Shown: positions 1 through 13,083, numbered from the stretch's first letter. The stretch is 13,931 nucleotides of DNA from a virus (IMGVR_UViG_2728369553_000003), one strand, 5' to 3'. The notes: generated by a model not told the origin, from the sequence alone. Made by a program: numbers and translations.

Positions 1-1734
1 TCTCGTACAGCATGGCTCTGCCAACCGCCATAATCAGCGCAACTGCACCATCGATTTTGTTTTCCGCCTGCTCTTTGACGGGCTTCACCACATCATCGTT
101 ACCCGGAATGGTTTTGCCGACCACGTTGCCGATACACCAGGTCATGATGGGATTGCCATCATGATGAAAGCGCCCCGATTCAATTGCCGCTTCCAGCTCT
201 TTCATCGGGTCGGACATGTTGGTGTAGTTCTGAATGATAGTGATGGGGTTCAGGTCTTCATCAGCAAGGTCATGTGACAACCCGGTCGCCCCGAAGGGGT
301 CGATGGGTGACTCACTGACCGGGCTGATTTTGTTCGCCGCTTTGGCCTCCTCGAGGATGTAGCGATAATCCACCTCCGCACCATCGGTAACGGTCAGAAC
401 GCCCATTTCCACCCATTTCTGAAAGCGTTCGGCTGTCCGTCGATCTTCATTTTTCTCGACGCTGTACACCGTGTCATACGGTACCCAGAAACGCGGGGCC
501 ACACTGTAGTAATGCGTTTTACCGTCAATCTCGCGGGTATAAAGTCGCGCCATGCTGTTCATATCCAGCTTACGCGCCAGGTCAAAGGCCAGAATGCACG
601 GCTGCCCCTCGAACTGCTCAAGAGTCAGTGATTTATCCTCGCAGCTCTGCCAGCTCACCAGATTGAAATACGCCGAACGCGCCGACACCCAGATATTGAG
701 GTGTTTTGTTTTAAAGACGTTTGCCAGACGGGCGTTATTTTTCGCACGCTNNNNNNNNNNNNNNNNNNNNNNNNNNNNNNNNNNNNNNNNNNNNNNNNNN
801 NNNNNNNNNNNNNNNNNNNNNNNNNNNNNNNNNNNNNNNNNNNNNNNNNNNNNNNNNNNNNNNNNNNNNNNNNNNNNNNNNNNNNNNNATCGCCTTCGTC
901 AACGGTATAGATGATCCCGAACAGTTCATCGTTGGGTACCGACCCGTTGAGCATCTCGATAACTTCCCGCCGCTTGTCGTAGCACGGCCCCTCAATGTTG
1001 TACCCGGCAGTAGTAATGGCCCACATCAGTGGCTGACGTCGCGCCCCCATCCCGGTAAGCATCGTGGTGTAAAGCGCATCGGTGGCGTGCTCGTGATATT
1101 CATCCACCACCGCACAGTGGGGTGATGAACCATCACCGGGGTTACCGATCAGCGGTTCAAAACGCGCACCATCCTCCGGACGGTTCATGTTTGAGGCGTT
1201 AACCTCAATCCCGAACGCTTCCGTCAGCATGGGTGTGCGTTTACACATCAGTCTTGCCGGACGAAAGACTTCCCATGCCTGTTTCTCCGTCGTGGCACCG
1301 GAATACACTTCCGCGCCGAACTCGTTATCACAGGCAAAACAATACAGGGCGACACCGGCAGAGATTGCCGATTTGCCGTTCTTACGGGGGATTTCGGTAT
1401 ACACCTCACGGAAGCGGCGCAGCCGGGAGCCTTTATTGACCCAGCCAAACGCGCAGCAGATCACAAAGAGCTGCCACAGCTCCAGCGTGATGGGCATCCT
1501 CTTAAATGCCCACTCACCCTTGGTGTGCGGCAACAGCTGAATAAATTTAGCGGCCCGTTCAGCCAGGTCCTTGTCGAAGCGGTAACGAAACGACTTACTT
1601 TTTTCCGCCATCAGGTCATCAAGATGCCGCTGGCAGGCCTGAATCACAAACTGGCAGGCCACAATCTTTCCGCGCACGACATCACGGGCATACTGATTGG
1701 CAGCATTTACGTTGGGGTAAGATTTCCGGCTCAT
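1..1734 (-). CDS. Phage terminase large subunit (ATPase/nuclease), split by assembly gap 751-888; C-terminus runs off the window
   Basis: Minus ORF with ATG at 1732-1734 overlapping the TerS stop (ATGA). Walker A (EIPRKNGKS) and Walker B (AVVDEYHEH) are present in the translation. After the N-run the protein continues in a different minus frame to the window edge (1-60 translates as [19 protein letters not shown]), so the gap length is not real. Confidence 0.85.
751..888. other. Assembly gap (138 N) inside the terminase large subunit gene
   Basis: Run of N; the reading frame differs on either side. Confidence 0.95.
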
Positions 1735-6053: not shown

Positions 6054-6985
6054 TTACGCCAGTACGCCTATTGCCAGCGCACGATCGATAAAACGAAATA
6101 TCAGCTCCAGCTGGGAACCATACTTCTCTTCAAATGCCACGGTATCCGCATGCAGCTCGTCGTGATGCTTTCTGCACAAAGGCAACACAAAGAGGTCATG
6201 CGCTTTTGTACCCATTCCCCCCTGACCGTGGCCTATCAGGTGGTGGGGATCATCAGCAGGCTTTCCACAACATGCACACGGCTGTGTCTTAACCCAGCGT
6301 GTGTACTTTTCATTAACCCAGCGGCGACGTTTTGGGCGTAACATAAAAGACTCCGGCGACTCCGGATCCACTTTCAGCGCCAGCACCTTTTTCACCTTAT
6401 CCTGGATGATGCTGGTGGCAGGAACCGAAGGCACAAGGTCACTTTCCCGGGTGACAGACGGCACAACAGGCTTCGGTAATCTCAGTGCCTTACGGGCTGC
6501 ACTTTCCGGTAAGGCATCCGCCAGGTCATTACGAATCAGCCACCAGCACAGTTCCGGCATTGTCACAACGTGACTATCATCAAAACCGAGATCCCGACGC
6601 ACAACAGACAACACCCAGCGGGCACAGTTATCCGTTGCCATTGATTCCAGCCGTTCCGTGAACTGATCGCGCAGCTGGTTATCGCAGTGCCAGCACAGAC
6701 GGATTGCGCCCGGCGCGTGTCGCATTGTTGTCATGTTCTCGCTGTGCCAGTCGGAATGAGGCCACTGGCAGCCTTTTTCACGAAGTAACCAGCTTTCAAG
6801 ACATTCCACGCCACCAGCACGACGGATCACTGCCTCATTGCGGAACACGGCCCGAACGTCAGGATCATCCGCCAGCGGTTGTGATGCCGCCGGAACAGCA
6901 CCACTGGCGAAAGATGAATAACGTTCCGGCTCAGGCTCCAGCAGGACACGCCCCTGCATAAACAGGGGCATCAGCTCTGAACCTG
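6054..6985 (-). CDS. DUF968-like protein (N-terminus hidden in assembly gap)
   Basis: Open minus frame from the gap edge to the stop at 6054-6056. C-terminal motif CACCGKPADDPHHLIGHGQGGMGTKAHDLFVLPLCRKHHDELH recalled as characteristic of DUF968 prophage proteins. Probably a separate gene from the KilA-N ORF, though the tracker fuses them across the N-run. Confidence 0.5.
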
Positions 6986-7111
6986 NNNNNNNNNNNNNNN
7001 NNNNNNNNNNNNNNNNNNNNNNNNNNNNNNNNNNNNNNNNNNNNNNNNNNNNNNNNNNNNNNNNNNNNNNNNNNNNNNNNNNNNNNNNNNNNNNNNNNNN
7101 NNNNNNNNNNN
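6986..7111. other. Assembly gap (126 N) hiding the boundary between the KilA-N and DUF968 coding regions
   Basis: Run of N. Confidence 0.95.
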
Positions 7112-7874
7112 GGAATCGGGATTCGAAGAAATGCGGCTGCGTCTCACGCGGATTTGCGGGACTGGTGATATTCTTGCCGAACATGCAGCCTTTCGCTGTC
7201 AGCGACCAGAATTTTTTGATGTTGTTAATCGCTGTACGGCTGTATCGTTCGCGCTGTTCGACGATCCCCAGCTTCGCCATCTGGTGATATGCCTGATTAG
7301 CCGTAAGGCGGATACCATACTGCTTCAGCAGTGCACTCAGTGACAGCGTGGGGCGGCTTGAGCCATCAGGCGCGTCAGCAGGAGCATCAATGGCATAGCG
7401 CGGTGCCAGATTCGGTAAGCCAACAGCCTCCTGAAGTTTCTGACAGGCTCCAAGCACTGAAGAGTTAGACAGATTTAACTCCCGGCGCATAAAGTCCAGC
7501 AGAATCACACCAGCCTGCATCTTGTCAGCAGCCTGTCCGGATAATTTTTCCGGTGCGCTGGTTACCATGTCGAAAGTACGGATCACCTTCAGATGGAATG
7601 ACGGGCTGATCCACATTGCATAGGCATACACCAGTTCTTTGCAGACATACGTCCCCTGGTTATTTCCGCCACGAATAACGTTAACTGGCTCTATATTGAC
7701 CGAGTTGCAAATCTGCAACTCGCTTATTAAACGCTCAGTTTGCTCATTGCGGAGCCAGAATGCAGGCTTATGCTTATCCAGAGAACCGGCAGCCCTGTGC
7801 AGATCGTTCAGGCTGTAACGCCCATAAGCATCACGACGAACTTCAATACCATCAATGACCATCAGATTATTCAT
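7112..7874 (-). CDS. KilA-N domain antirepressor-like protein (C-terminus hidden in gap)
   Basis: ATG at 7872-7874 with a GAGGAG 9 nt upstream. N-terminus MNNLMVIDGIEVRRDAYGRYSLNDLHRAAG... is KilA-N-like, followed by an antirepressor-like C-region. The open frame runs into the N-run. Confidence 0.6.
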
Positions 7875-7893: not shown

Positions 7894-8283
7894 TCAGGCG
7901 GCTGCACCCGCCGTTTTCTCGTACTTACTGATAGTGATCTCGACCTTCCCTTCCGGGATAACCGGTCCCCACTCCACCAGCATTCTTTTCACCTGACTGT
8001 CGTCTTCCCACACACCCGCGTGGGTCAGGGCGTCAAACAGCGCCTTGTTATAGTTGTCCAGATCGCGGATCCGGTTATCCGGAGGAAACAACACGATCTC
8101 CACTGAAGCAGGTGCCGACGTTGGTTTTGGCAGACGACGTAACTGCTCAACTATTGCTGCACACGCCGCGCTCTGGAATTTGCGCCCCGCCGCGCTTATC
8201 AGGCTCTTACCTGCAAACGCCCCTTTGTTGGGGTGTCGCCAGTACGTGTTCACGCTGGGCGGGAAAGGCAGAATCAGCTTCAT
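7894..8283 (-). CDS. rusA: RusA-family Holliday junction resolvase
   Basis: 129 aa with a RusA-like layout (PPS.N.Y.R...; ...RDLDNYNKALFDALT..GVW.DD.QV). ATG at 8281-8283 overlaps the upstream stop (ATGA). Confidence 0.8.
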   Translation of the reverse strand: MKLILPFPPSVNTYWRHPNKGAFAGKSLISAAGRKFQSAACAAIVEQLRRLPKPTSAPASVEIVLFPPDNRIRDLDNYNKALFDALTHAGVWEDDSQVKRMLVEWGPVIPEGKVEITISKYEKTAGAAA

Positions 8284-8606
8284 ACTTTCAGACCCCTCTC
8301 ATGTAACCAGTGGGCTGCACGCAGCCTGGCGTTTTCCTCACCGGCAAGCAGTGAGCGGATAATCCCGACCGCCTCGCTGTCGTCGTCCTTCACCGCGGTA
8401 TGAAGCGTTATCCCCCGGGCCACACCACGCTTTATCGTGATGACGCCTTTTTTCTCCAGTGCGCGAAGATGCTCCACCGCTGCATTCACTGAACGATATC
8501 CCAGCATGGTTGCCACCTCCTGATTGGTTGGCGGAAAGCCACGCTCTTTCTGGTAAGAAATCAGCATATCCAGCACCTGCTGCTGGCATTGAGTTAACGT
8601 CGTCAT
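8280..8606 (-). CDS. LexA N-terminal DNA-binding-domain homolog lacking the S24 peptidase domain
   Basis: Residues 4-68 align with the E. coli LexA winged-helix domain at about 50% identity as recalled (LT..QQ.V.D.I......G.PPT..E.A..LG.RS.NAA.EHL.AL..KGVI.I..G..RGI.L). No Ala-Gly cleavage site or Ser/Lys dyad follows; the 40-aa C-tail is unrelated. Translationally coupled on both sides by ATGA overlaps. Confidence 0.8.
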   Translation of the reverse strand: MTTLTQCQQQVLDMLISYQKERGFPPTNQEVATMLGYRSVNAAVEHLRALEKKGVITIKRGVARGITLHTAVKDDDSEAVGIIRSLLAGEENARLRAAHWLHERGLKV

Positions 8607-9256
8607 GCCGCCATCTCCCTGACCAGTTTTTCCGCCTGCTGGCGAACCTGCACCAGAAAGGCTTCACCACATGCCTCAAGTTCATCGCGCCCGATGTAGC
8701 TGATTGCCGGTCCCTTCCAGGTCTTGTCGAAAACAGCAATAGCACCAGCGAAGAAAGCGCCTGTCGGTACCTGCTTCTCGTCTTTCGGGATAAACCAGAC
8801 AGGCAGTTCAAAACCAATACGCCCGCGAATAAAAGCAATATGATCTGCATTTTCCGGCCACCACACTTCGCTGGTGGCAGCTTTGATCAGGAAAACATAG
8901 CGCCCGCCTTTATCACGCATGGCACTGGCATGCTTCATGATGTAACGCATGCCGGTGATGTATTGCCCCTCATGCTGACTGGCGCGGCTGTATGGGGGAT
9001 TACCAAAGGCAGCACCTTTAAGCTCCGCAAGACGTTCTGACCAGTCATGCGCCAGCGCGTTGTCTTCCGCCGTGTAATACGCGGCACATTTGGCGTTATC
9101 ACCGTCAGTGAACAGATCCAGAACAAACGGGCCAAACAGGGTGTTAATTCCCCAGAAAATGTTGTCCGGCGTGCGCCACTGATCGCCCACTTCCTTCAGT
9201 TCATGGGCTGGTTTGTTCCGCAGTTCCACCAGCGCCTGGCAATATTTATTACTCAT
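8603..9256 (-). CDS. Phage Dam-family DNA N6-adenine methyltransferase
   Basis: Catalytic NPPY motif (FGNPPYS) and an N-terminal WRTPDNIF...LDLFTD segment. The likely start is the ATG at 9254-9256 (GGGGG SD, overlaps the upstream TAA); the tracker start at 9289 is GTG. Confidence 0.8.
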   Translation of the reverse strand: MSNKYCQALVELRNKPAHELKEVGDQWRTPDNIFWGINTLFGPFVLDLFTDGDNAKCAAYYTAEDNALAHDWSERLAELKGAAFGNPPYSRASQHEGQYITGMRYIMKHASAMRDKGGRYVFLIKAATSEVWWPENADHIAFIRGRIGFELPVWFIPKDEKQVPTGAFFAGAIAVFDKTWKGPAISYIGRDELEACGEAFLVQVRQQAEKLVREMAA

Positions 9257-9744
9257 TAAGCCCCCACGTAATTCCCTGACAGATACCACTCTTCACCCGA
9301 TGCAGCGCGCTTGCTGCTTTTCCGTAAGCACCGCTCACGACGCGCCAGAAAATTGTTTCGCTCTTGCTGGGAGTGGCTTTCACGGAATGCCGCCATCCAC
9401 ACCGTTGCAGCACGACGGTATAAGCCCCTGGACTCCAGTTCTTCCGCCTGGCGGGTCAGGCACAAAATCTCCCGCGGGTCGTTAGTGCCGACATAGAAAT
9501 TGCGCACAGGTCTGGTTTCACGAACTGGTTGCGGTTCCGCCTCCTGCGCTCTCTCAGTCAGGCGCGGGAAATGTCTGCGTGTATCCCCTTCACAACGGTG
9601 AGCCACACGACCACTCTGACGTAACTTGCTTGCTGACTGCAGAACGCGCTGCCGTGAGTAACCTGCAAAAGCATCCGCAATGTCTCCGGAAGTACACCCC
9701 GGATGGGCTTCAATGTATTTCTGAACTTCATTCAAAAGACTCAT
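9256..9744 (-). CDS. Hypothetical 162-aa regulator-like protein (tentative resemblance to PerC-family activators)
   Basis: ATG at 9742-9744 with a GGGGGTG SD, 2 nt after the O-like stop. The C-terminal segment AEELESRGLYRRAATVWMAAF is recalled as PerC-like; this is unverified. It sits where lambdoid phages normally carry a helicase loader. Confidence 0.45.
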   Translation of the reverse strand: MSLLNEVQKYIEAHPGCTSGDIADAFAGYSRQRVLQSASKLRQSGRVAHRCEGDTRRHFPRLTERAQEAEPQPVRETRPVRNFYVGTNDPREILCLTRQAEELESRGLYRRAATVWMAAFRESHSQQERNNFLARRERCLRKSSKRAASGEEWYLSGNYVGA

Positions 9745-9746
9745 GA

Positions 9747-10837
9747 TCACCCCCTGAATCCTGCCGGGATCTGGCTGTAGTCCACGTTGTCGTAACTGGC
9801 TTTGAAGTACGGGTCTTCGCGTTTTTCGGTGTACGTGCTGACGGACGGCGATAAGCGCAGGGAAAGCTCATCCCATTTTTCCCGCAGCTTCGACGGGCTG
9901 AGCACGTTACGGCACCAGAACGGATCGCGGCTGACGCGGCTGTACATCTCGCAGATTTGTTTGTGAGTACGACCATCCTGCACACACATCAGGCGAATTT
10001 CGTTTGCCCAGGCTGTCCAGTTCGGTTCTTTGGGACGAACCACCTCGCCGTCACATTCGGCGGCTTGCTCGTACAGGGCGATGATTTTTTTCCAGAGCCA
10101 CTGTGCGCAGGTCAAATCATCCTGCGTTCCCCACTGGCGCTTTTTAGGGCTGAATACAACCGCATCAGGATGGCGAGTTAAAAAATCCTGTTCATCCGTC
10201 TGCGTGTCCGGTTGCGAAGCGTCCGGACGAGAAGGTTTTTTATCTGACGGATCATGTTTTGATTTTACTGACGGATCCCCGCCAGATTCTGACGGGTGAA
10301 AACCCGCTTTTTTGCCAGATTTCNNNNNNNNNNCTCCTGTTCAGCCGTCTGCGTGTCCGGTTGCGAAGCGTCCGGACGAGAAGTTTTTTTATCTGACGGA
10401 TCATGTTTTGATTTTACTGACGGATCCCCGCCAGATTCTGACGGGTGAAAACCCGCTTTTTTGCCAGATTTCGACGCATCAAATTTTGACGGGTCAGATT
10501 TTGATGCGTCAGATTTTGACGGGTCAGAATCTGACAGTTGAGAAAATGCCGCTGCCTGAAGCTTCGCAACGTTAAGCTGATAAACATTCGACGCATTGCG
10601 GTTACCCTGGCGACGCGCCTTACGCGTTAACCAGCCTTCTGCTTCCAGCCGTGCGATAGCCGTCCTGACGGTACTCATCCCCGCGCCAATCTGACGGGCA
10701 ATAGTTTCAATTGATGGCCAGCACACACCTTCGTCATTACTGAAATCAGCCAGGCGGGCCATAATTGCCACGCTGGATAATTTCATGCCTGACGCAGCGC
10801 AACCATCCCATACATAGCCGGTTAATTTAGTGCTCAT
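9747..10837 (-). CDS. O-like replication initiator, apparently split by a 10-N gap and an unmerged 138-bp contig overlap
   Basis: N-terminal winged-helix domain (10561-10837), then a repeat-encoded SDPSK/SDASK linker, then a C-terminal domain (9747-10185). The tracker reports two ORFs (10265..10837 and 9747..10115, the latter with a TTG start). Collapsing the duplicated 138-bp copies restores one in-frame ORF of about 313 aa. Confidence 0.65.
10186..10472. repeat. 138-bp direct repeat (10186-10323 and 10335-10472) flanking a 10-N gap; probable unmerged contig overlap
   Basis: The copies are identical except for two positions (10195 T vs 10344 G; 10235 G vs 10384 T). The 149-nt offset breaks the frame as presented, but the frame is restored if one copy is removed. 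Confidence 0.7.
10391..10540. repeat. Iteron-like repeats inside the O-like gene (candidate origin of replication)
   Basis: Five tandem 15-bp units at 10464-10538 (consensus about TCAGATTTTGACGGG), plus spaced CTGACGG motifs at about 10393, 10417 and 10437. Lambda ori likewise lies in iterons within O. Confidence 0.5.
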
Positions 10838-10846
10838 GACCGACCT

Positions 10847-11185
10847 CTATTTCCCTGAATTTACGACGAAACTGTTCGAGCGGGCTGAAGCACTCATGCT
10901 CATAGCCTTCGCGGAGGTAGATAACTCGTTGTGTTTCCGGCTCCCAACGAATGACTCTGACGGGCACTCCGTAGTGATCTTTGAACCAGCGGTTAACTTG
11001 TCGCAAAGGACTGTCTCCTTCTGCCGGTTGAAATCACCCACAGCCCACTCAGCAAAGCTGTGGGTTACAATTTCCCTGTCACCTGGTACATTAACTGCAT
11101 AGCAATACTCCACCTTCGCTTTTCCACCCGGTACAGGAAGCGCAATCAGTTGCGAGCGACGGAAGTGTGTTGTTAAACTGTTCAT
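10847..11185 (-). CDS. Hypothetical 112-aa protein between the CII-like and O-like genes
   Basis: ATG at 11183-11185 overlaps the CII-like stop (ATGA). Its stop lies 9 nt before the O-like ATG, with an AGG in between. The C-terminal 25 residues are low-complexity. Confidence 0.45.
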
Positions 11186-11778
11186 GCGTTAGTTTCTCCA
11201 CAGTCACGACACGCCACGGCGCCCGGAGCTGCACACTCGCGGGCGTCATTACTTTCTGAAATGCAAAAGATTTTGTAGACCAGTGCTGCATGCTCCTGCA
11301 GCTTCGAAATTGAGAGATACAGCTCGTCGTTAATTGCTGTCTTCTCATGCGGTTCCACCACACCGTCTTCGATTGCCGAACGAATCTGTCTGGAATAACT
11401 GCCAATCTGTTCAATGACTTCCAGCAGGCGCTGGTTAATATCGGCGTTGTCCACATCCTCGACGTCAGGAAGAGATACAAAGACGCCATTTGCAGACTGC
11501 GCCACAGCGTCAGCAATGAAGTGAGTTCCACCAGCACGTTGCAAAATCATTGCCCATCCCAGCGGGAAAATCTGATCGCCATCGGCACGAAGGCGGTTAA
11601 ATAATGCGTTTTCTGTTACATCCAGCCAGTCAGCTGCTTCAGCGTAACCACCCGGCAACGCTGCGATAGTTTTTCTGACAGCTTTCACGTACCACTCAGG
11701 CTGTTTTTCTACTTTCCAGTGATGCTTACCCACGGTTAGCCTCATCGTTCTGTGGTTTCTGTTAATCGATTTATCCAT
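11182..11778 (-). CDS. CII-like early regulator (phage regulatory CII / YdaT-type); start uncertain
   Basis: About 200 aa directly downstream of cro, in the cII position. The tracker start at 11847 is GTG and lies inside cro. Candidate ATG starts are at 11788-11790 and 11776-11778; the latter overlaps the cro stop (ATGGATAA). Confidence 0.5.
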
Positions 11779-11971
11779 TAGATTTTTCATAAAGCTCAGG
11801 TTTAAATGGCAACCGTCCGCAAGTTCTATATGCAGCTTCTGCTGCACGTCCTTTTGGAATTAACTGGCCCGGACGGTTTCGCCACTGATAAACGGCTTCA
11901 GTTGTTATGCCGAAAAAAGCAGCAACTTTCTCAATACTGCCGAAGTAGCTTTCGATATCGTCAGTTGTCAT
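11771..11971 (-). CDS. cro: Cro-like HTH repressor
   Basis: 66-aa HTH protein divergent from the cI-like gene. ATG at 11969-11971 with a GGAGG 4 nt upstream. Confidence 0.8.
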   Translation of the reverse strand: MTTDDIESYFGSIEKVAAFFGITTEAVYQWRNRPGQLIPKGRAAEAAYRTCGRLPFKPELYEKSNG

Positions 11972-12068
11972 ACGCCCTCCAAACTAAGTTTTATTAGATG
12001 CTAATTACAAATCTATCTTTGGTCAATAAAAACTAAGATTACTTAGCAATTCAAGAAATGGTGCTCCT
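11972..12068. promoter_or_regulatory. OR-like divergent control region with a PR-like promoter and CTAAG-based operator candidates
   Basis: Minus-strand TTGACC-17nt-TAGCAT (plus 11998-12026) upstream of the cro SD. Inverted repeat CTAAG-ATTA-CTTAG at 12033-12046 and a near-copy CTAAG-TTTT-ATTAG at 11984-11997. AACTAAG occurs at 11982 and 12031. Confidence 0.5.
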
Positions 12069-12695
12069 ATGGAAACGGTTGGTCAGCGTATAAAAGCTCT
12101 GAGAAGAGTTACCGGAACGTCCCAGAAAGAATTGGGTAAATTTTGTGGAGTAAGCGACGTTGCTGTGGGGTACTGGGAGAAAGACATCAATACCCCTGGT
12201 GGGGAGGCACTTTCGAAATTAGCGAAGTTCTTCAATACGTCAATAGATTACATTCTTTATGGTGCTGAGTTTGAAGGCAAACTCGTCACAAACATGCGCA
12301 GAGTTCCTGTAATATCGTGGGTTCAGGCTGGGCAGTTTACTGAGTGCAGGGCAGCAGAAGTGTTTAGTGAAGTGGACAAGTGGGTAGATACATCATTAAA
12401 GATTGGTGATAACTCATTTGCATTAGAGGTTAAAGGTGACTCCATGACTAACCCTAATGGCCTCCCAACAATACCAGAAGGCGCAACAGTGATTGTAGAT
12501 CCAGATGCAGAACCTCGTCATGGAAAAATAGTCATCGCTCGACTTGATGGAACAAACGAAGCTACAGTAAAAAAATTAGTCATCGATGGCCCTCAAAAGT
12601 TTTTAGTGCCATTAAATCCTCGGTATCCCAACATCCCTATCAATGGTAATTGCCTTATCATTGGTGTAGTCAAAGGAGTTCAATACGAACTCTAA
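12069..12695 (+). CDS. cI: cI-like prophage repressor (XRE HTH plus S24 LexA-type autopeptidase domain)
   Basis: N-terminal HTH (QKELGKFCGVSDVAVGYWE), Ala-Gly cleavage site (VQAGQF), catalytic Ser in GDSM and Lys in TVKKL. Divergent from cro. Confidence 0.9.
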   Translation: METVGQRIKALRRVTGTSQKELGKFCGVSDVAVGYWEKDINTPGGEALSKLAKFFNTSIDYILYGAEFEGKLVTNMRRVPVISWVQAGQFTECRAAEVFSEVDKWVDTSLKIGDNSFALEVKGDSMTNPNGLPTIPEGATVIVDPDAEPRHGKIVIARLDGTNEATVKKLVIDGPQKFLVPLNPRYPNIPINGNCLIIGVVKGVQYEL

Positions 12696-12777: not shown

Positions 12778-12879
12778 TTATATCAAAGATAACGAACAGG
12801 CAGGACGCCCACGAAGTAGCCGCCGGTGGCGTATGAATGACCGGATGATTCGTTAAATACTATGTGTAAGAGAGCGCAA

Positions 12880-13083
12880 ATGAACCGTTATTTCACATGC
12901 TCGTTTTGTGGAGCAAACGAGCTGCAGGCAAAAAAAATCATCGCCAAAGGCGGAAAAGATGAAGTTGCTATCTGCTCTGAGTGCGTAGTCTTGTGTGTCG
13001 GGGCATTAATCAATATCAGCACAACTATTCAGTTCACACCAAATGAGAATGCGCCTTTAGATGCGCGGAAATCTGGAGGTTAA
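12880..13083 (+). CDS. Small ClpX-type C4 zinc-finger protein (67 aa)
   Basis: YFTCSFCG...KKIIAKGGKDEVAICSECVVLC matches the ClpX N-terminal zinc-binding domain pattern (CSFCG...ICDEC). ATG at 12880-12882 is preceded by AAGAGAG; the tracker start at 12862 lacks an SD. Confidence 0.6.
   Translation: MNRYFTCSFCGANELQAKKIIAKGGKDEVAICSECVVLCVGALINISTTIQFTPNENAPLDARKSGG

What the first reader, a model, noticed from the sequence alone, without database searches (positions are those of the whole stretch)
9256..10115. No recognisable helicase or helicase loader after the initiator; a regulator-like ORF sits in that slot
Lambdoid replication modules normally pair the initiator with a P-like loader, a DnaC-like protein or a DnaB-like helicase. 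Here the gene immediately after the O-like initiator (2-nt spacing, own SD) is a 162-aa protein with a winged-helix-like N-terminus and an Arg-rich C-terminus that I can only tentatively liken to PerC-family activators. Either this is an unrecognised loader or adaptor, or the initiator's C-terminal domain recruits the host helicase directly.
Basis: inference. Interest (0 to 1): 0.4.

Follow-up and report, generated by a model that had tools for sequence, protein, structure and literature searches.

The report
Loader-less lambda-O-type phage replication module
The prophage really has no helicase or helicase-loader gene: the 162-aa gene after the initiator is a known PerC-family regulator (YfdN), and the initiator ends in the same short tail as the host restart protein DnaT, which probably lets it use the host's own loader.

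Summary
On the minus strand, a 162-aa ORF (9256-9744) starts 2 nt after the initiator's stop codon and has its own Shine-Dalgarno sequence. It has a winged-helix N-terminus and an Arg-rich C-terminal three-helix domain. That domain matches Pfam PerC above the curated cut-off. The protein is YfdN, annotated in about 1,900 complete E. coli genomes and in phages SfII, SfIV and SfV.

YfdN shows no loader-like feature. Homologous initiators occur without it. It sits where lambda has ren, not where lambda has P. No helicase or loader was found in complete relatives of this prophage.

The initiator's C-terminal domain is homologous to the P-binding domain of lambda O (hhalign 99.9%). Its last 9 residues, SQIPAGFRG, match 8 of 9 with the C-terminus of E. 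coli DnaT.

Across 88 loci the tail, not the domain core, predicts the next gene:
- Lambda-like tails: lambda P follows in 35 of 35.
- GFRG tails: P follows in 0 of 28; a true DnaC homologue follows in 3 of 28; no loader in the rest.

I infer that the GFRG tail engages host DnaB-DnaC. This step is untested. The genes are known; the proposed tail-partner rule appears unreported.

The parts
9256..9744 (-). yfdN-family gene, 162 aa. N-terminal winged helix-turn-helix, disordered linker, C-terminal PerC domain (residues 98-149).
   Evidence: Pfam PerC scores 38 bits against a cut-off of 22.6. It matches PHROG 1324 'transcriptional activator' at E 6e-77. RefSeq names it 'PerC family transcriptional regulator / yfdN'. 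Foldseek finds only winged-helix regulators.
9750..9755 (-). Shine-Dalgarno sequence AGGGGG of yfdN, formed by the last codons (R-G) of the initiator. It lies 5 nt before the ATG, and the two genes are 2 nt apart.
   Evidence: Read directly from the sequence.
9750..9788 (-). C-terminal tail of the initiator, NVDYSQIPAGFRG. This is the DnaT-type 'IPxGFRG' tail.
   Evidence: 8 of 9 residues match the E. coli DnaT C-terminus. The tail is invariant in DnaT. Rac YdaU carries the same tail. The tail class predicts the downstream gene.
9849..10193 (-). Core of the initiator's C-terminal domain (about residues 166-280 of the intact 313-aa protein). It is homologous to the C-terminal domain of lambda O.
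   Evidence: hhalign of the CTD alignment A3 against lambda O gives probability 99.9%, E 7e-33, aligning lambda O residues 164-296. AlphaFold2 shows a helical domain with pLDDT about 90.
10334..10837 (-). N-terminal part of the initiator: an HTH_36 winged-helix origin-binding domain plus a disordered, repeat-encoded linker.
   Evidence: Pfam HTH_36, E 2e-11. PHROG 391 'replication initiation O-like'. AlphaFold2 model.
10430..10535 (.). Iterons, the presumed origin. Six copies of a 13-bp palindrome-like unit, GTCARAWTYTGAC, five of them at 15-bp spacing, inside the initiator gene. One further copy at 10281-10293 belongs to the assembly duplication.
   Evidence: 7 matches against 1.07 expected by chance; 0 of 200 shuffles reach 7. 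The same array is present in the intact relative L089.
10324..10333 (.). A 10-N gap that splits the initiator gene. It is flanked by a 138-bp direct duplication (10186-10323 equals 10335-10472). This is an assembly join, not biology.
   Evidence: blastn against SfII. Relatives carry one uninterrupted 942-nt gene.
8603..9256 (-). Phage N6-adenine methyltransferase gene (dam). Its ATG overlaps the yfdN stop codon (TAATG).
   Evidence: Pfam Dam, E 8e-46, and TIGR01712. The overlap is read from the sequence.
11998..12026 (-). pR-like promoter upstream of cro. No minus-strand terminator-like site lies between it and rusA, so cro, cII, the DUF4222 gene, the initiator, yfdN, dam, the lexA-N-domain gene and rusA read as one operon.
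   Evidence: Consensus scan. This is a pattern match only.

Best explanation
The window carries the early-right operon of an SfII/SfV/e14-type lambdoid prophage. Its replication module is an 'initiator-only' variant of the lambda O-P module.

The initiator:
- An N-terminal HTH_36 winged helix binds 15-bp-spaced iterons that lie inside the initiator's own gene.
- Its C-terminal domain is a true homologue of the lambda O C-terminal domain.
- The lambda-type extreme C-terminus (...NTDWIYGVDL) always goes with a P gene. Here it is replaced by ...DYSQIPAGFRG.
- This replacement is the short tail that ends the host restart protein DnaT and the Rac prophage protein YdaU. Both of those are encoded directly upstream of a DnaC-type loader gene.

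Proposed mechanism (inferred, not shown): the tail is a short linear docking motif for the DnaC-type loader or for the DnaB-DnaC complex. The origin-bound initiator would therefore take DnaB from the host's own DnaB-DnaC pool, and the phage needs no P, DnaC or DnaB gene.

The 162-aa gene:
- It is YfdN, a winged-helix plus PerC-domain DNA-binding regulator.
- It is translationally coupled into the operon at the position that lambda gives to ren, the first accessory gene after the replication genes.
- Most likely it acts as a PerC/Pch-like transcriptional activator or counter-silencer during lytic growth.
- It is an accessory gene for replication, not a loader.

My confidence in each step:
- No phage-encoded loader or helicase: about 0.9.
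- YfdN is not the loader: about 0.85.
- YfdN is a transcription regulator: about 0.55.
- The tail recruits host DnaB-DnaC: about 0.45.
For: Shown by tool results:
1. Nature of the 162-aa protein.
- PerC domain above the Pfam cut-off.
- Winged-helix plus three-helix fold.
- Only regulator folds are found in the PDB.
- PHROG 'transcriptional activator'.
- Pch/PerC proteins bind DNA and displace H-NS (PMC4764244).
2. No loader or helicase in the window, in the complete SfII genome or in a 99.6%-identical complete prophage.
3. The same module is present in phages deposited as complete genomes of named phages, some with a named host strain: SfII, SfIV, SfV, PhiR29 and vB_Eco phages. SfV and SfII are described as isolated and characterised in the abstract of PMC3636060.
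4. The initiator's C-terminal domain matches the lambda O C-terminal domain: hhalign 99.9%, E 7e-33. Iterons lie inside the gene.
5. The tail SQIPAGFRG matches DnaT's SQIPPGFRG in 8 of 9 positions.
6. The motif PDxxIPxGFRG is invariant in 120 DnaT clusters. IPxGF(R/K) persists in DnaT orthologues down to 32% identity.
7. YdaU has an unrelated N-terminal DUF1376 domain. It ends VNTVSLPDSAIPPGFRG, against DnaT's VNTVSEPDSQIPPGFRG. It is followed by the DnaC-like YdaV. dnaT itself lies 2 nt upstream of dnaC.
8. Across 88 loci with this C-terminal-domain core:
- Tails of type HWNSPEAWENTL: lambda-P family gene next in 22 of 22.
- Tails of type NTDWIxG: lambda-P family gene next in 13 of 13.
- GFR(G) and GWKG tails: P next in 0 of 28.
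- Three of those 28 are followed, 3 nt after the stop, by a protein 49% identical to E. coli DnaC. The other 25 have no P, DnaC or DnaB within 5 kb on either side.
9. Tail classes are intermixed within one cluster of cores that are at least 70% identical. For example, L008 (GFR tail, no loader) is 86% identical in its core to L017 (P-paired). The partner therefore follows the tail and not the core.
10. Out-of-sample test on a different scaffold, the DnaT-domain proteins. P0446 (NTDWI tail) and P0416 (WNSPEAW tail) are each followed by a lambda-P gene. P0426 (GFRG tail) is not.
11. YfdN is dispensable for this initiator class.
- Klebsiella, Citrobacter and other loci have a GFR-tailed initiator directly followed by a methyltransferase gene.
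- Three IMG/VR contigs retain only a 26-aa remnant of yfdN.
12. The slot argument.
- Lambda's gene order is O-P-ren.
- DUF977, which follows some GFRG-tailed initiators, matches PHROG 142 'Ren-like exclusion protein'.
- In Rac and in L046 a DUF1627 winged-helix gene follows the DnaC-like loader.
Against: - No binding of the tail to DnaC or DnaB is shown here or in any paper I could read. The 2026 preprimosome study says that how DnaT recruits DnaB/DnaC is unknown, and it favours the DnaT N-terminal domain (PMC13377028).
- The tail could instead act in ssDNA binding. Truncating DnaT to residues 84-153 weakens ssDNA binding and cooperativity (PMC4132743). It could also contact PriA or PriB.
- Every YfdN homologue I examined follows a GFRG-tailed HTH_36 initiator. 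Small winged-helix genes fill the next position in 17 of 28 GFRG-type loci and in 0 of 35 P-type loci. A replication-linked accessory role for YfdN is therefore not excluded.
- The loci are not phylogenetically independent, so the raw counts overstate the statistical support.
- No direct test of YfdN function exists. The only use I found was as a deleted background strain.
Confidence: 0.55

Rival explanations
1. The 162-aa protein (YfdN) is an unrecognised helicase loader or adaptor. It would bridge the origin-bound initiator to host DnaB or DnaC, replacing lambda P.
For: - It is translationally coupled to the initiator: a 2-nt gap, with its Shine-Dalgarno sequence inside the initiator's last codons.
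- Every YfdN homologue I examined, down to 67% identity, sits directly after a GFRG-tailed HTH_36 initiator. More distant versions in Pantoea-like loci (L013, L048) do the same.
- Small winged-helix proteins (YfdN, DUF977, DUF1627) occupy the next position in 17 of 28 GFRG-type loci and in 0 of 35 P-paired loci.
Against: - It has no AAA+, lambda-P or DnaD-type feature. It contains a PerC domain and a regulator-type winged helix.
- GFRG-tailed initiators occur with no YfdN and no other small gene before the methyltransferase (L006-L008, L030, L039).
- Deletion remnants of yfdN exist.
- In Rac and in L046 a DUF1627 winged-helix gene follows a genuine DnaC-type loader, and lambda has ren at that position. 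The winged-helix slot is therefore separate from the loader slot.
- In SfV-type phages the homologous DNA segment starts about 75 nt before the initiator's stop codon. The tail and yfdN therefore travel together as one mosaic block. That explains their linkage without requiring a functional tie.
Confidence: 0.1
2. The GFRG tail does not contact DnaC or DnaB. It mimics DnaT in order to plug the origin-bound initiator into the PriA/PriB restart primosome, or simply to bind ssDNA. The helicase would then be loaded by that route.
For: - The tail is shared with DnaT, whose documented contacts are PriA (via its C-terminal domain), PriB (via its linker) and ssDNA (PMC13377028).
- Removing DnaT residues 154-179 weakens ssDNA binding and cooperativity (PMC4132743).
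Against: - In three independent scaffolds the tail sits immediately upstream of a DnaC-type gene. These are DnaT with DnaC, YdaU with YdaV, and the lambda-O-type initiators of L036, L044 and L046 with a DnaC homologue.
- On the same scaffolds the tail is mutually exclusive with lambda P. This pattern suggests that the tail belongs to the helicase-delivery step.
- The published interface descriptions I read for the cryo-EM structures name the DnaT C-terminal domain for PriA and the linker for PriB. They do not mention the extreme tail.
Confidence: 0.2
3. The prophage is replication-defective, or it depends on a helper. On this view a loader gene was lost, and the arrangement is decay rather than design.
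For: - The window's initiator reading frame is interrupted.
- K-12's CPS-53 copy of this region is a remnant, in which yfdN is retained.
Against: - The interruption is an assembly gap with duplicated flanks.
- The same module, intact, is found in complete genomes of named phages, some with a named host strain: SfII, SfIV, SfV, PhiR29 and vB_Eco phages. It is also in about 1,900 of 5,426 complete E. coli genomes at 95-99% identity.
- The initiator-only arrangement recurs in several genera.
Confidence: 0.03

Closest known systems
Lambda O-P replication module (phage lambda)
   Same: - The initiator's ori iterons lie inside its own gene.
- It has an N-terminal DNA-binding domain, a disordered linker and a C-terminal domain.
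- The C-terminal domain is homologous to lambda O residues 164-296.
- The operon position is the same: after cro and cII, before the nin-like genes.
   Different: - There is no P gene.
- The N-terminal domain is HTH_36. Pfam does not assign it to the lambda O N-terminal family.
- The last roughly 13 residues are the DnaT-type tail instead of lambda's ...LDLTNTDWIYGVDL.
- The iterons are about 13 bp at 15-bp spacing, whereas lambda has four 18-bp iterons.
E. coli DnaT-DnaC (dnaTC operon) and Rac prophage YdaU-YdaV
   Same: - The extreme C-terminal motif is the same: IPxGFRG at the very end.
- In the close relatives L036, L044 and L046, the same initiator type is followed 3 nt later by a 49%-identical DnaC homologue. 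This mirrors dnaT-dnaC (2-nt gap) and ydaU-ydaV.
   Different: - The window's phage has no DnaC-type gene.
- The domain core is not the DnaT three-helix domain. Pfam PF17948 is not detected, and profile comparison aligns only the tail.
- DnaT is not origin-specific.
Non-lambdoid 'Eru' replication regions of Stx phages (Eru5/6/8/11/13, HTH_36 proteins); 'initiator-solo' modules of Weigel & Seitz 2006 (the latter recalled from memory, not read here)
   Same: - These are HTH_36 initiators without O/P genes downstream of cI.
- Eru6 is represented by Stx2a_WGPS2, which carries the SfV-type initiator followed by the same yfdN and dam block.
   Different: - The Eru papers classify gene content only. 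They state that nothing is known about how these phages replicate (PMC8951638).
- Neither the lambda-O homology of the C-terminal domain nor the tail rule appears in what I could read.
PerC of EPEC and PchA-E of EHEC (Pfam PF06069)
   Same: - The C-terminal three-helix, Arg-rich domain matches the PerC profile above the cut-off.
- The gene is prophage-borne.
- The literature calls YfdN the K-12 PerC homologue.
   Different: - YfdN has an extra N-terminal winged helix and a linker. It is 162 aa, and the PerC match covers only residues 98-149.
- Only profile positions 5-56 of 90 are matched.
- No LEE-type target is known for it.
- Its fixed position after the replication initiator is not a feature of pchA-C.
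Lambda Ren and Ren-like DUF977 proteins
   Same: It occupies the same operon position, as the first gene after the replication genes. In sister loci that position is filled by DUF977, which matches PHROG 142 'Ren-like exclusion protein'.
   Different: No detectable sequence relationship exists between YfdN and Ren, DUF977 or DUF1627 (hhalign probability 3% or less).

Membership tests
PerC/Pch family (Pfam PF06069), tested on the 162-aa protein | Match to the family profile at or above the curated gathering score. | tested here: met
   38.0 bits against a cut-off of 22.6, E 2e-9. Residues 98-149 match profile positions 5-56 of 90. Precomputed PF06069 hits are recorded for most of the listed homologues.
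PerC/Pch family (Pfam PF06069), tested on the 162-aa protein | Small single-domain protein that activates LEE1/ler or counteracts H-NS. | not testable with these tools
   YfdN has an additional winged-helix domain. The literature I read used a yfdN deletion only as a background strain (PMC5931665). Activity of Pch is described in PMC4764244.
ANR (AraC negative regulator) family, NCBIfam NF033650 | Match at or above the curated cut-off. | tested here: not met
   24.2 bits against a cut-off of 32.
Helicase loaders (lambda P PF06992; DnaC/IstB AAA+ PF01695; DnaD-like), tested on the 162-aa protein | Profile match, Walker-type ATPase fold, or lambda-P fold. | tested here: not met
   No such hit in Pfam, NCBIfam or PHROGs. 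The AlphaFold2 model is a winged helix plus a three-helix bundle. Foldseek against the PDB returns only winged-helix regulators. tblastn with DnaC, DnaB and P representatives finds nothing in the window.
Lambda O-type replication initiator, tested on the initiator | C-terminal domain homologous to the lambda O C-terminal (P-interacting) domain. | tested here: met
   hhalign probability 99.9%, E 7e-33, 130 aligned columns, lambda O residues 164-296. PHROG 391 'replication initiation O-like', E 1e-135.
Lambda O-type replication initiator, tested on the initiator | Iterons (the origin) inside the initiator gene, encoding an inter-domain linker. | tested here: met
   Six or seven copies of GTCARAWTYTGAC at 15-bp spacing, against 1.07 expected by chance. 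The same array is in the intact relative. The encoded segment, residues 102-159, is disordered in the model. Origin function itself was not tested.
Lambda O-type replication initiator, tested on the initiator | Cognate P-family loader encoded immediately downstream. | tested here: not met
   0 of 28 GFR(G)/GWKG-tailed loci have a P gene, against 35 of 35 for loci with lambda-like tails.
Lambda O-type replication initiator, tested on the initiator | N-terminal domain of the lambda O family (Pfam Phage_rep_O; accession recalled from memory). | tested here: not met
   Pfam reports HTH_36, GntR and MarR-type winged-helix families. It reports no lambda O N-terminal family at E 0.01 or better.
DnaT (primosomal protein I), tested on the initiator, which some records annotate as 'primosomal protein' | DnaT three-helix ssDNA-binding domain (Pfam PF17948). 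| tested here: not met
   No PF17948 hit for the initiator, whereas E. coli DnaT gives 75 bits. A profile of the C-terminal domain searched against PDB sequences finds no DnaT. Profile-profile comparison aligns only the last 23 columns.
DnaT (primosomal protein I), tested on the initiator | Conserved extreme C-terminal motif IPxGFRG. | tested here: met
   SQIPAGFRG against SQIPPGFRG, 8 of 9 positions. The motif is conserved across DnaT orthologues down to 32% identity.
Ren-like exclusion proteins (PHROG 142 / DUF977), tested on the 162-aa protein | Profile similarity to Ren or DUF977. | tested here: not met
   hhalign probability 0.4% against lambda Ren and against DUF977. Only the operon position is shared.

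The most novel reading that the evidence does not exclude
The last 10-20 residues of lambdoid replication initiators act as a swappable partner tag. The tag is carried on at least three unrelated scaffolds: the lambda-O C-terminal domain, the DnaT-type domain, and DUF1376/YdaU.
- NTDWIxG-type and WNSPEAW-type tails specify a lambda-P loader.
- The PDxxIPxGFRG tail specifies the DnaC route.

On this reading the invariant, structurally unresolved C-terminal tail of E. coli DnaT is the missing element that recruits DnaB-DnaC during PriA-dependent restart. The dnaT-dnaC operon would then be a domesticated prophage 'initiator C-terminus plus DnaC' module. Loader-less phages such as SfII, SfV and the Eru-type Stx phages would replicate by presenting a DnaT-mimic tail at their origin.
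Probability: 0.4. Interest if true: 0.7.

Novelty: new variant of a known kind. Interest (0 to 1): 0.45.

Why it matters
The genes themselves are ordinary. They have long been catalogued in SfII, SfV, e14/CPS-53-type prophages and some Stx phages.

What would matter is the rule that emerged from comparing them: a few terminal residues of the initiator predict which helicase-delivery route a lambdoid phage uses. The loader-less route uses the same tail as DnaT.

If that holds, three things follow:
- It explains how a very common class of E. coli and Shigella prophages replicates without O/P-type loaders. This class includes Eru-type Shiga-toxin phages, whose replication proteins are said to be unstudied (PMC8951638).
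- It gives a concrete, cheap experiment for an open question stated in 2026: how the PriA-PriB-DnaT preprimosome recruits DnaB-DnaC (PMC13377028).
- It supports a prophage origin for the whole dnaT-dnaC operon, extending the published proposal for dnaC alone (PMC5109545).

It also corrects annotation. 'Primosomal protein' and 'GntR-family regulator' labels on these initiators, and any idea that YfdN is part of the replication machinery, are not supported.

Tried and rejected
- **DnaT-like core domain.** I tested whether the initiator's C-terminal domain core is DnaT-like. Pfam finds no PF17948. A profile search against PDB sequences finds no DnaT. hhalign against a DnaT alignment aligns only the tail. 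Foldseek with the full-length model was swamped by matches to the N-terminal winged helix and says nothing about the C-terminal domain.
- **A ~440-aa helicase candidate.** A ~440-aa gene downstream of some GFRG/GWKG-tailed initiators looked like a possible DnaB-type helicase. It is a ParB-HTH protein.
- **YfdN related to Ren, DUF977 or DUF1627.** Not detectable.
- **Independent replication of the tail statistics in IMG/VR.** The 80 loci returned were all 98-100% identical to the query. They served only to show how constant yfdN is and to find three deletion variants.
- **Sequence search of YfdN and the initiator against the PDB.** Nothing useful was found.
- **Literature.**
  - No paper in the searchable library combines DnaT with lambdoid replication modules.
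  - Wrobel & Wegrzyn 2002 is not held.
  - Weigel & Seitz 2006 did not appear in the library searches; I saw it only as a cited reference.
  - I therefore cannot exclude that the tail similarity was noted in either.
- **Context of further GFRG-tailed DnaT-domain proteins.** The contigs for P0451 and P0483 were too short to show the next gene.
- **Defective prophage.** Rejected, because the same module occurs intact in complete genomes of named phages such as SfII, SfIV and SfV.


Full report
**1. What is in the window**

The window is the early-right and lysis region of a lambdoid prophage, with the genes on the minus strand.
- cI (12069-12695, plus strand) faces cro (11771-11971).
- After cro come a cII/YmfL-type gene, a DUF4222 gene and the initiator (9747-10837).
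- Next come the 162-aa gene (9256-9744), dam, a LexA-N-terminal-domain gene, rusA, KilA-N and DUF968 genes, and Q.
- Lysis genes, an HNH endonuclease gene and terminase genes follow.

The DNA from 9200 to 10900 is 98-99% identical to the Shigella serotype-converting phages SfII and SfIV and to several isolated Escherichia phages. At least 80% of it is present in 1,909 of 5,426 complete E. coli genomes. A pR-like promoter precedes cro. No minus-strand terminator-like site lies before rusA, so these genes read as one operon.

**2. The observation**

- The 162-aa ORF begins at the ATG at 9744, 2 nt after the initiator's TGA stop (9747-9749).
- AGGGGG at 9750-9755 lies 5 nt upstream of that ATG. 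These bases are the initiator's last codons.
- The dam ATG overlaps the stop codon of the 162-aa ORF (TAATG).

The finding's range 9256-10115 also contains 'ORF 9747-10115'. This is simply the C-terminal end of the initiator. In this assembly the initiator is cut by a 10-N gap (10324-10333) with 138 bp duplicated on both sides. In SfII and in E. coli ECONIH4 it is one 313-aa protein.

**3. The 162-aa protein**

Sequence and family evidence:
- Pfam places residues 98-149 in the PerC family: 38 bits against a gathering score of 22.6.
- The NCBIfam ANR model stays below its cut-off.
- PHROGs assigns the protein to 'transcriptional activator' families.
- RefSeq names it 'PerC family transcriptional regulator', often with the gene name yfdN.
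- A paper on O157:H7 calls yfdN 'the K12 unique PerC homologue' (PMC5931665).

Structure evidence:
- The AlphaFold2 model used 19 sequences and has mean pLDDT 75.5.
- It shows a winged helix at residues 3-60, a disordered stretch at 63-84, and three helices at 90-148.
- Foldseek against the PDB returns only ArsR/SmtB, MarR, BlaI and similar winged-helix regulators, aligned over about 60 residues at about 2 A rmsd.
- No match resembles an AAA+ loader, lambda P or a helicase.

PerC/Pch proteins bind AT-rich DNA and relieve H-NS silencing (PMC4764244). That is the best available model for what YfdN does. No experiment on YfdN itself was found.

**4. Is there a loader anywhere?**

No.
- None of the remaining window ORFs has a loader or helicase domain.
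- The complete 41.5-kb SfII genome has none annotated.
- Ten SfII hypothetical proteins, covering its early region and other unassigned genes, have no such domain.
- The PGAP annotation of a 99.6%-identical complete prophage has none.
- tblastn with E. coli DnaB, E. coli DnaC and two lambda-P-family representatives finds nothing in the window or in SfII.

SfII and SfV are described as isolated and characterised phages (abstract of PMC3636060). The module also occurs in other named Escherichia phages, some deposited with a host strain. So it is a working arrangement, not decay.

**5. The initiator**

Domain layout:
- The N-terminus is an HTH_36 winged helix.
- Residues 102-159 are disordered.
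- That disordered stretch is encoded by an array of GTCARAWTYTGAC units at 15-bp spacing, at window 10430-10535. The scan finds 7 matches against 1.07 expected by chance.
- Residues 162-280 form a confident helical domain.

Homology of the helical domain:
- A 45-sequence alignment of this domain (A3) matches lambda O residues 164-296 with hhalign probability 99.9% and E 7e-33.
- By established knowledge (recalled, not read here), this C-terminal part of O is the part that interacts with P.
- So this is a true O-family initiator with a different origin-binding domain.

Relation to DnaT:
- Some records label these proteins 'primosomal protein'. That label reflects only the extreme C-terminus.
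- The last nine residues, SQIPAGFRG, match the last nine of E. coli DnaT, SQIPPGFRG, in 8 of 9 positions.
- The DnaT domain itself is not detectable in the initiator.

**6. The tail predicts the partner**

I collected 80 loci from species-representative genomes with a relative of this initiator. I added the loci fetched earlier. For each locus I read the initiator's C-terminus and the genes that follow.

The conserved core carries four alternative tails:

| Tail class | Typical ending | Loci | Gene that follows |
|---|---|---|---|
| A (plus two GWKG variants) | ...PD/DYxxIPxGFRG | 28 | Never lambda P; DnaC homologue in 3; no loader in 25 |
| B | ...HWNSPEAWENTL | 22 | Lambda-P family gene (PF06992) in 22 of 22 |
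| C | ...DFNNTDWIxG (lambda O itself ends LDLTNTDWIYGVDL) | 13 | Lambda-P family gene in 13 of 13 |
| D | ...AWxGIWQQAxEQ | 24 | No P, DnaC or DnaB found |

Details for class A:
- In the three loci with a DnaC homologue (L036, L044, L046), that gene starts 3 nt after the initiator's stop.
- It is a full-length protein 49% identical to E. coli DnaC.
- The other 25 have no P, DnaC or DnaB within 5 kb on either side.

Class D occurs mainly in Proteus, Providencia and Morganella.

The association is not just clade structure. Within a single cluster of cores that are at least 70% identical there are 11 P-paired proteins (B or C tails), 3 DnaC-paired proteins and 12 loader-less proteins (A tails). 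For example, the loader-less Klebsiella core L008 is 86% identical to the P-paired Erwinia core L017, and SfII's core is 79% identical to the P-paired L005.

**7. The same tail on other scaffolds**

- DnaT keeps PDxxIPxGFRG unchanged in all 120 listed clusters.
- DnaT keeps IPxGF(R/K) at or next to the C-terminus in orthologues down to 32% identity.
- dnaT lies 2 nt upstream of dnaC.
- Rac prophage YdaU has an unrelated DUF1376 N-terminus. It ends VNTVSLPDSAIPPGFRG, which matches DnaT's VNTVSEPDSQIPPGFRG in 15 of 17 positions.
- YdaU is followed by the DnaC-like YdaV and then by the DUF1627 winged-helix protein YdaW.
- SfV-type initiators have a different middle and C-terminal region but the same tail. 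Their homology to this window begins about 75 nt before the stop codon.

Among 250-540-aa proteins that carry a genuine DnaT-type domain, the same alternative tails recur. I used these as an out-of-sample test:
- P0446 (NTDWI tail) and P0416 (WNSPEAW tail) are each followed by a lambda-P gene.
- P0426 (GFRG tail) is not.
- Two other GFRG-tailed cases lay on contigs too short to judge.

**8. Interpretation**

Shown:
- The phage has no loader.
- The initiator is an O homologue.
- The initiator's tail is the DnaT/YdaU tail.
- The tail class predicts the presence or absence of P, independently of the core.
- The GFRG tail occurs with a DnaC-type gene or with no loader gene at all.

Inferred:
- The GFRG tail is a docking motif for the DnaC route.
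- A phage without its own DnaC uses the host's DnaB-DnaC complex.

Host range fits this idea. Loader-less tails are family-restricted: class A in Enterobacteriaceae and Erwiniaceae, class D mainly in Morganellaceae. P-paired tails occur from Pasteurellaceae to Enterobacteriaceae (record titles).

The 2026 preprimosome paper says that the way DnaT recruits DnaB/DnaC is unknown. Its interface descriptions, as far as I read them, cover the DnaT C-terminal domain and the linker, not the extreme tail (PMC13377028). Truncating DnaT to residues 84-153 reduces ssDNA binding and cooperativity (PMC4132743). A role for the tail in ssDNA, PriA or PriB contacts is therefore the main rival.

**9. Where YfdN fits**

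YfdN homologues down to 67% identity always lie between an HTH_36 initiator and dam. More distant versions follow the initiator in Pantoea-like loci.

The reverse is not true. GFRG-tailed initiators are followed by any of these:
- YfdN in 10 loci.
- DUF977 in 4 loci.
- DUF1627-type winged-helix proteins in 3 loci.
- A DnaC homologue in 3 loci.
- Methyltransferases in 5 loci.
- A ParB-HTH protein in 2 loci.
- An unassigned 80-aa ORF in 1 locus.

Evidence that this is the ren slot and not the P slot:
- DUF977 matches the PHROG family of lambda Ren, and lambda's gene order is O-P-ren.
- In Rac and in L046 the winged-helix gene follows the DnaC-type loader.

YfdN therefore occupies the first accessory slot after the replication genes, and the loader slot is simply empty. 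A subsidiary link to replication cannot be excluded: small winged-helix genes are enriched after loader-less initiators. But part of that linkage comes from the tail and yfdN being inherited as one mosaic block.

**10. Comparison with what is known, and novelty**

- The genes are catalogued.
- Loader-less HTH_36 modules are recognised descriptively as Eru types of Stx phages, with the remark that nothing is known about their replication proteins (PMC8951638).
- dnaC has been proposed to be a domesticated phage gene (PMC5109545).
- In the papers I could search, I found no statement of the lambda-O homology of these C-terminal domains, of the tail-partner rule, or of the DnaT tail as a shared motif.
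Prior notice of the tail similarity is possible.

I therefore rate the feature as a variant of a known kind, with moderate interest. The finding as first stated is largely explained by ordinary biology. The by-product hypothesis is what deserves follow-up.

Noticed in passing
window 10324-10333, with 10186-10323 equal to 10335-10472: A 10-N run splits the initiator gene and is flanked by a 138-bp direct duplication. The duplication includes one iteron and a terminator-like hairpin, each of which appears twice. It looks like a scaffold join across the iteron repeats, not a real duplication. Relatives have a single copy.
   Followed up: yes
window 751-888, 2761-2808, 6986-7111: Three further N runs are present. 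The one at 6986-7111 makes the KilA-N and DUF968 genes appear as one 606-aa ORF (6054-7874). In SfII and in E. coli ECONIH4 they are two separate genes.
   Followed up: partly
loci L018, L021, L022, L024, L025, L027, L028, L031, L038, L042, L043, L052-L057, L060, L061, L069, L073, L079, L083, L087: A fourth tail class (...AWxGIWQQAxEQAA...) sits on the same lambda-O-type core. It occurs mostly in Proteus, Providencia and Morganella prophages. These loci also have no P, DnaC or DnaB gene nearby. This may be a second, host-family-specific loader-less solution. DnaT orthologues at 32-44% identity still end in IPxGFR, so this tail is not a DnaT mimic.
   Followed up: partly
L033:5809-6216 (also L035, L037, L041): The DUF977 protein that follows some GFRG-tailed initiators matches PHROG 142 'Ren-like exclusion protein' (E 2e-45). 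DUF1627 proteins give weak hits to the same PHROG. This suggests that DUF977, and possibly DUF1627, are Ren relatives occupying lambda's ren position.
   Followed up: partly
L101, L132, L162 (IMG/VR contigs): In these three contigs yfdN is reduced to a 26-aa remnant, with dam starting about 90 nt after the initiator's stop codon. These are natural deletions of yfdN in otherwise similar modules. Whether these elements are viable phages is unknown.
   Followed up: no
window 12862-13083 (+): A 73-aa ORF just beyond cI matches the ClpX C4-type zinc-finger domain (PF06689, 41 bits against a cut-off of 27). A stand-alone ClpX N-domain in a prophage immunity region could interfere with ClpXP substrate or adaptor recognition.
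   Followed up: no
window 8280-8606 (-): A 108-aa protein consists only of a LexA DNA-binding domain (PF01726, 69 bits) and lacks the S24 peptidase domain. It would be a non-cleavable LexA-like binder co-expressed with the replication genes.
   Followed up: no
window 11182-11847 (-): The mechanical ORF for the cII/YmfL-type gene (221 aa, GTG start) overlaps cro by 77 nt. The YmfL profile covers only residues 54-194, and relatives annotate about 184 aa. The true start is probably an internal codon near 11740.
   Followed up: no
L012:5961-7298, L013:6462-7778, L048:5970-7292, L049:5670-6905: In Pantoea- and Erwinia-like loci, a ~440-aa ParB-HTH protein with an IIDGHHR motif follows the initiator, or follows the YfdN-like gene. 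A methyltransferase gene follows it in L048 and L049. It is not a helicase.
   Followed up: partly
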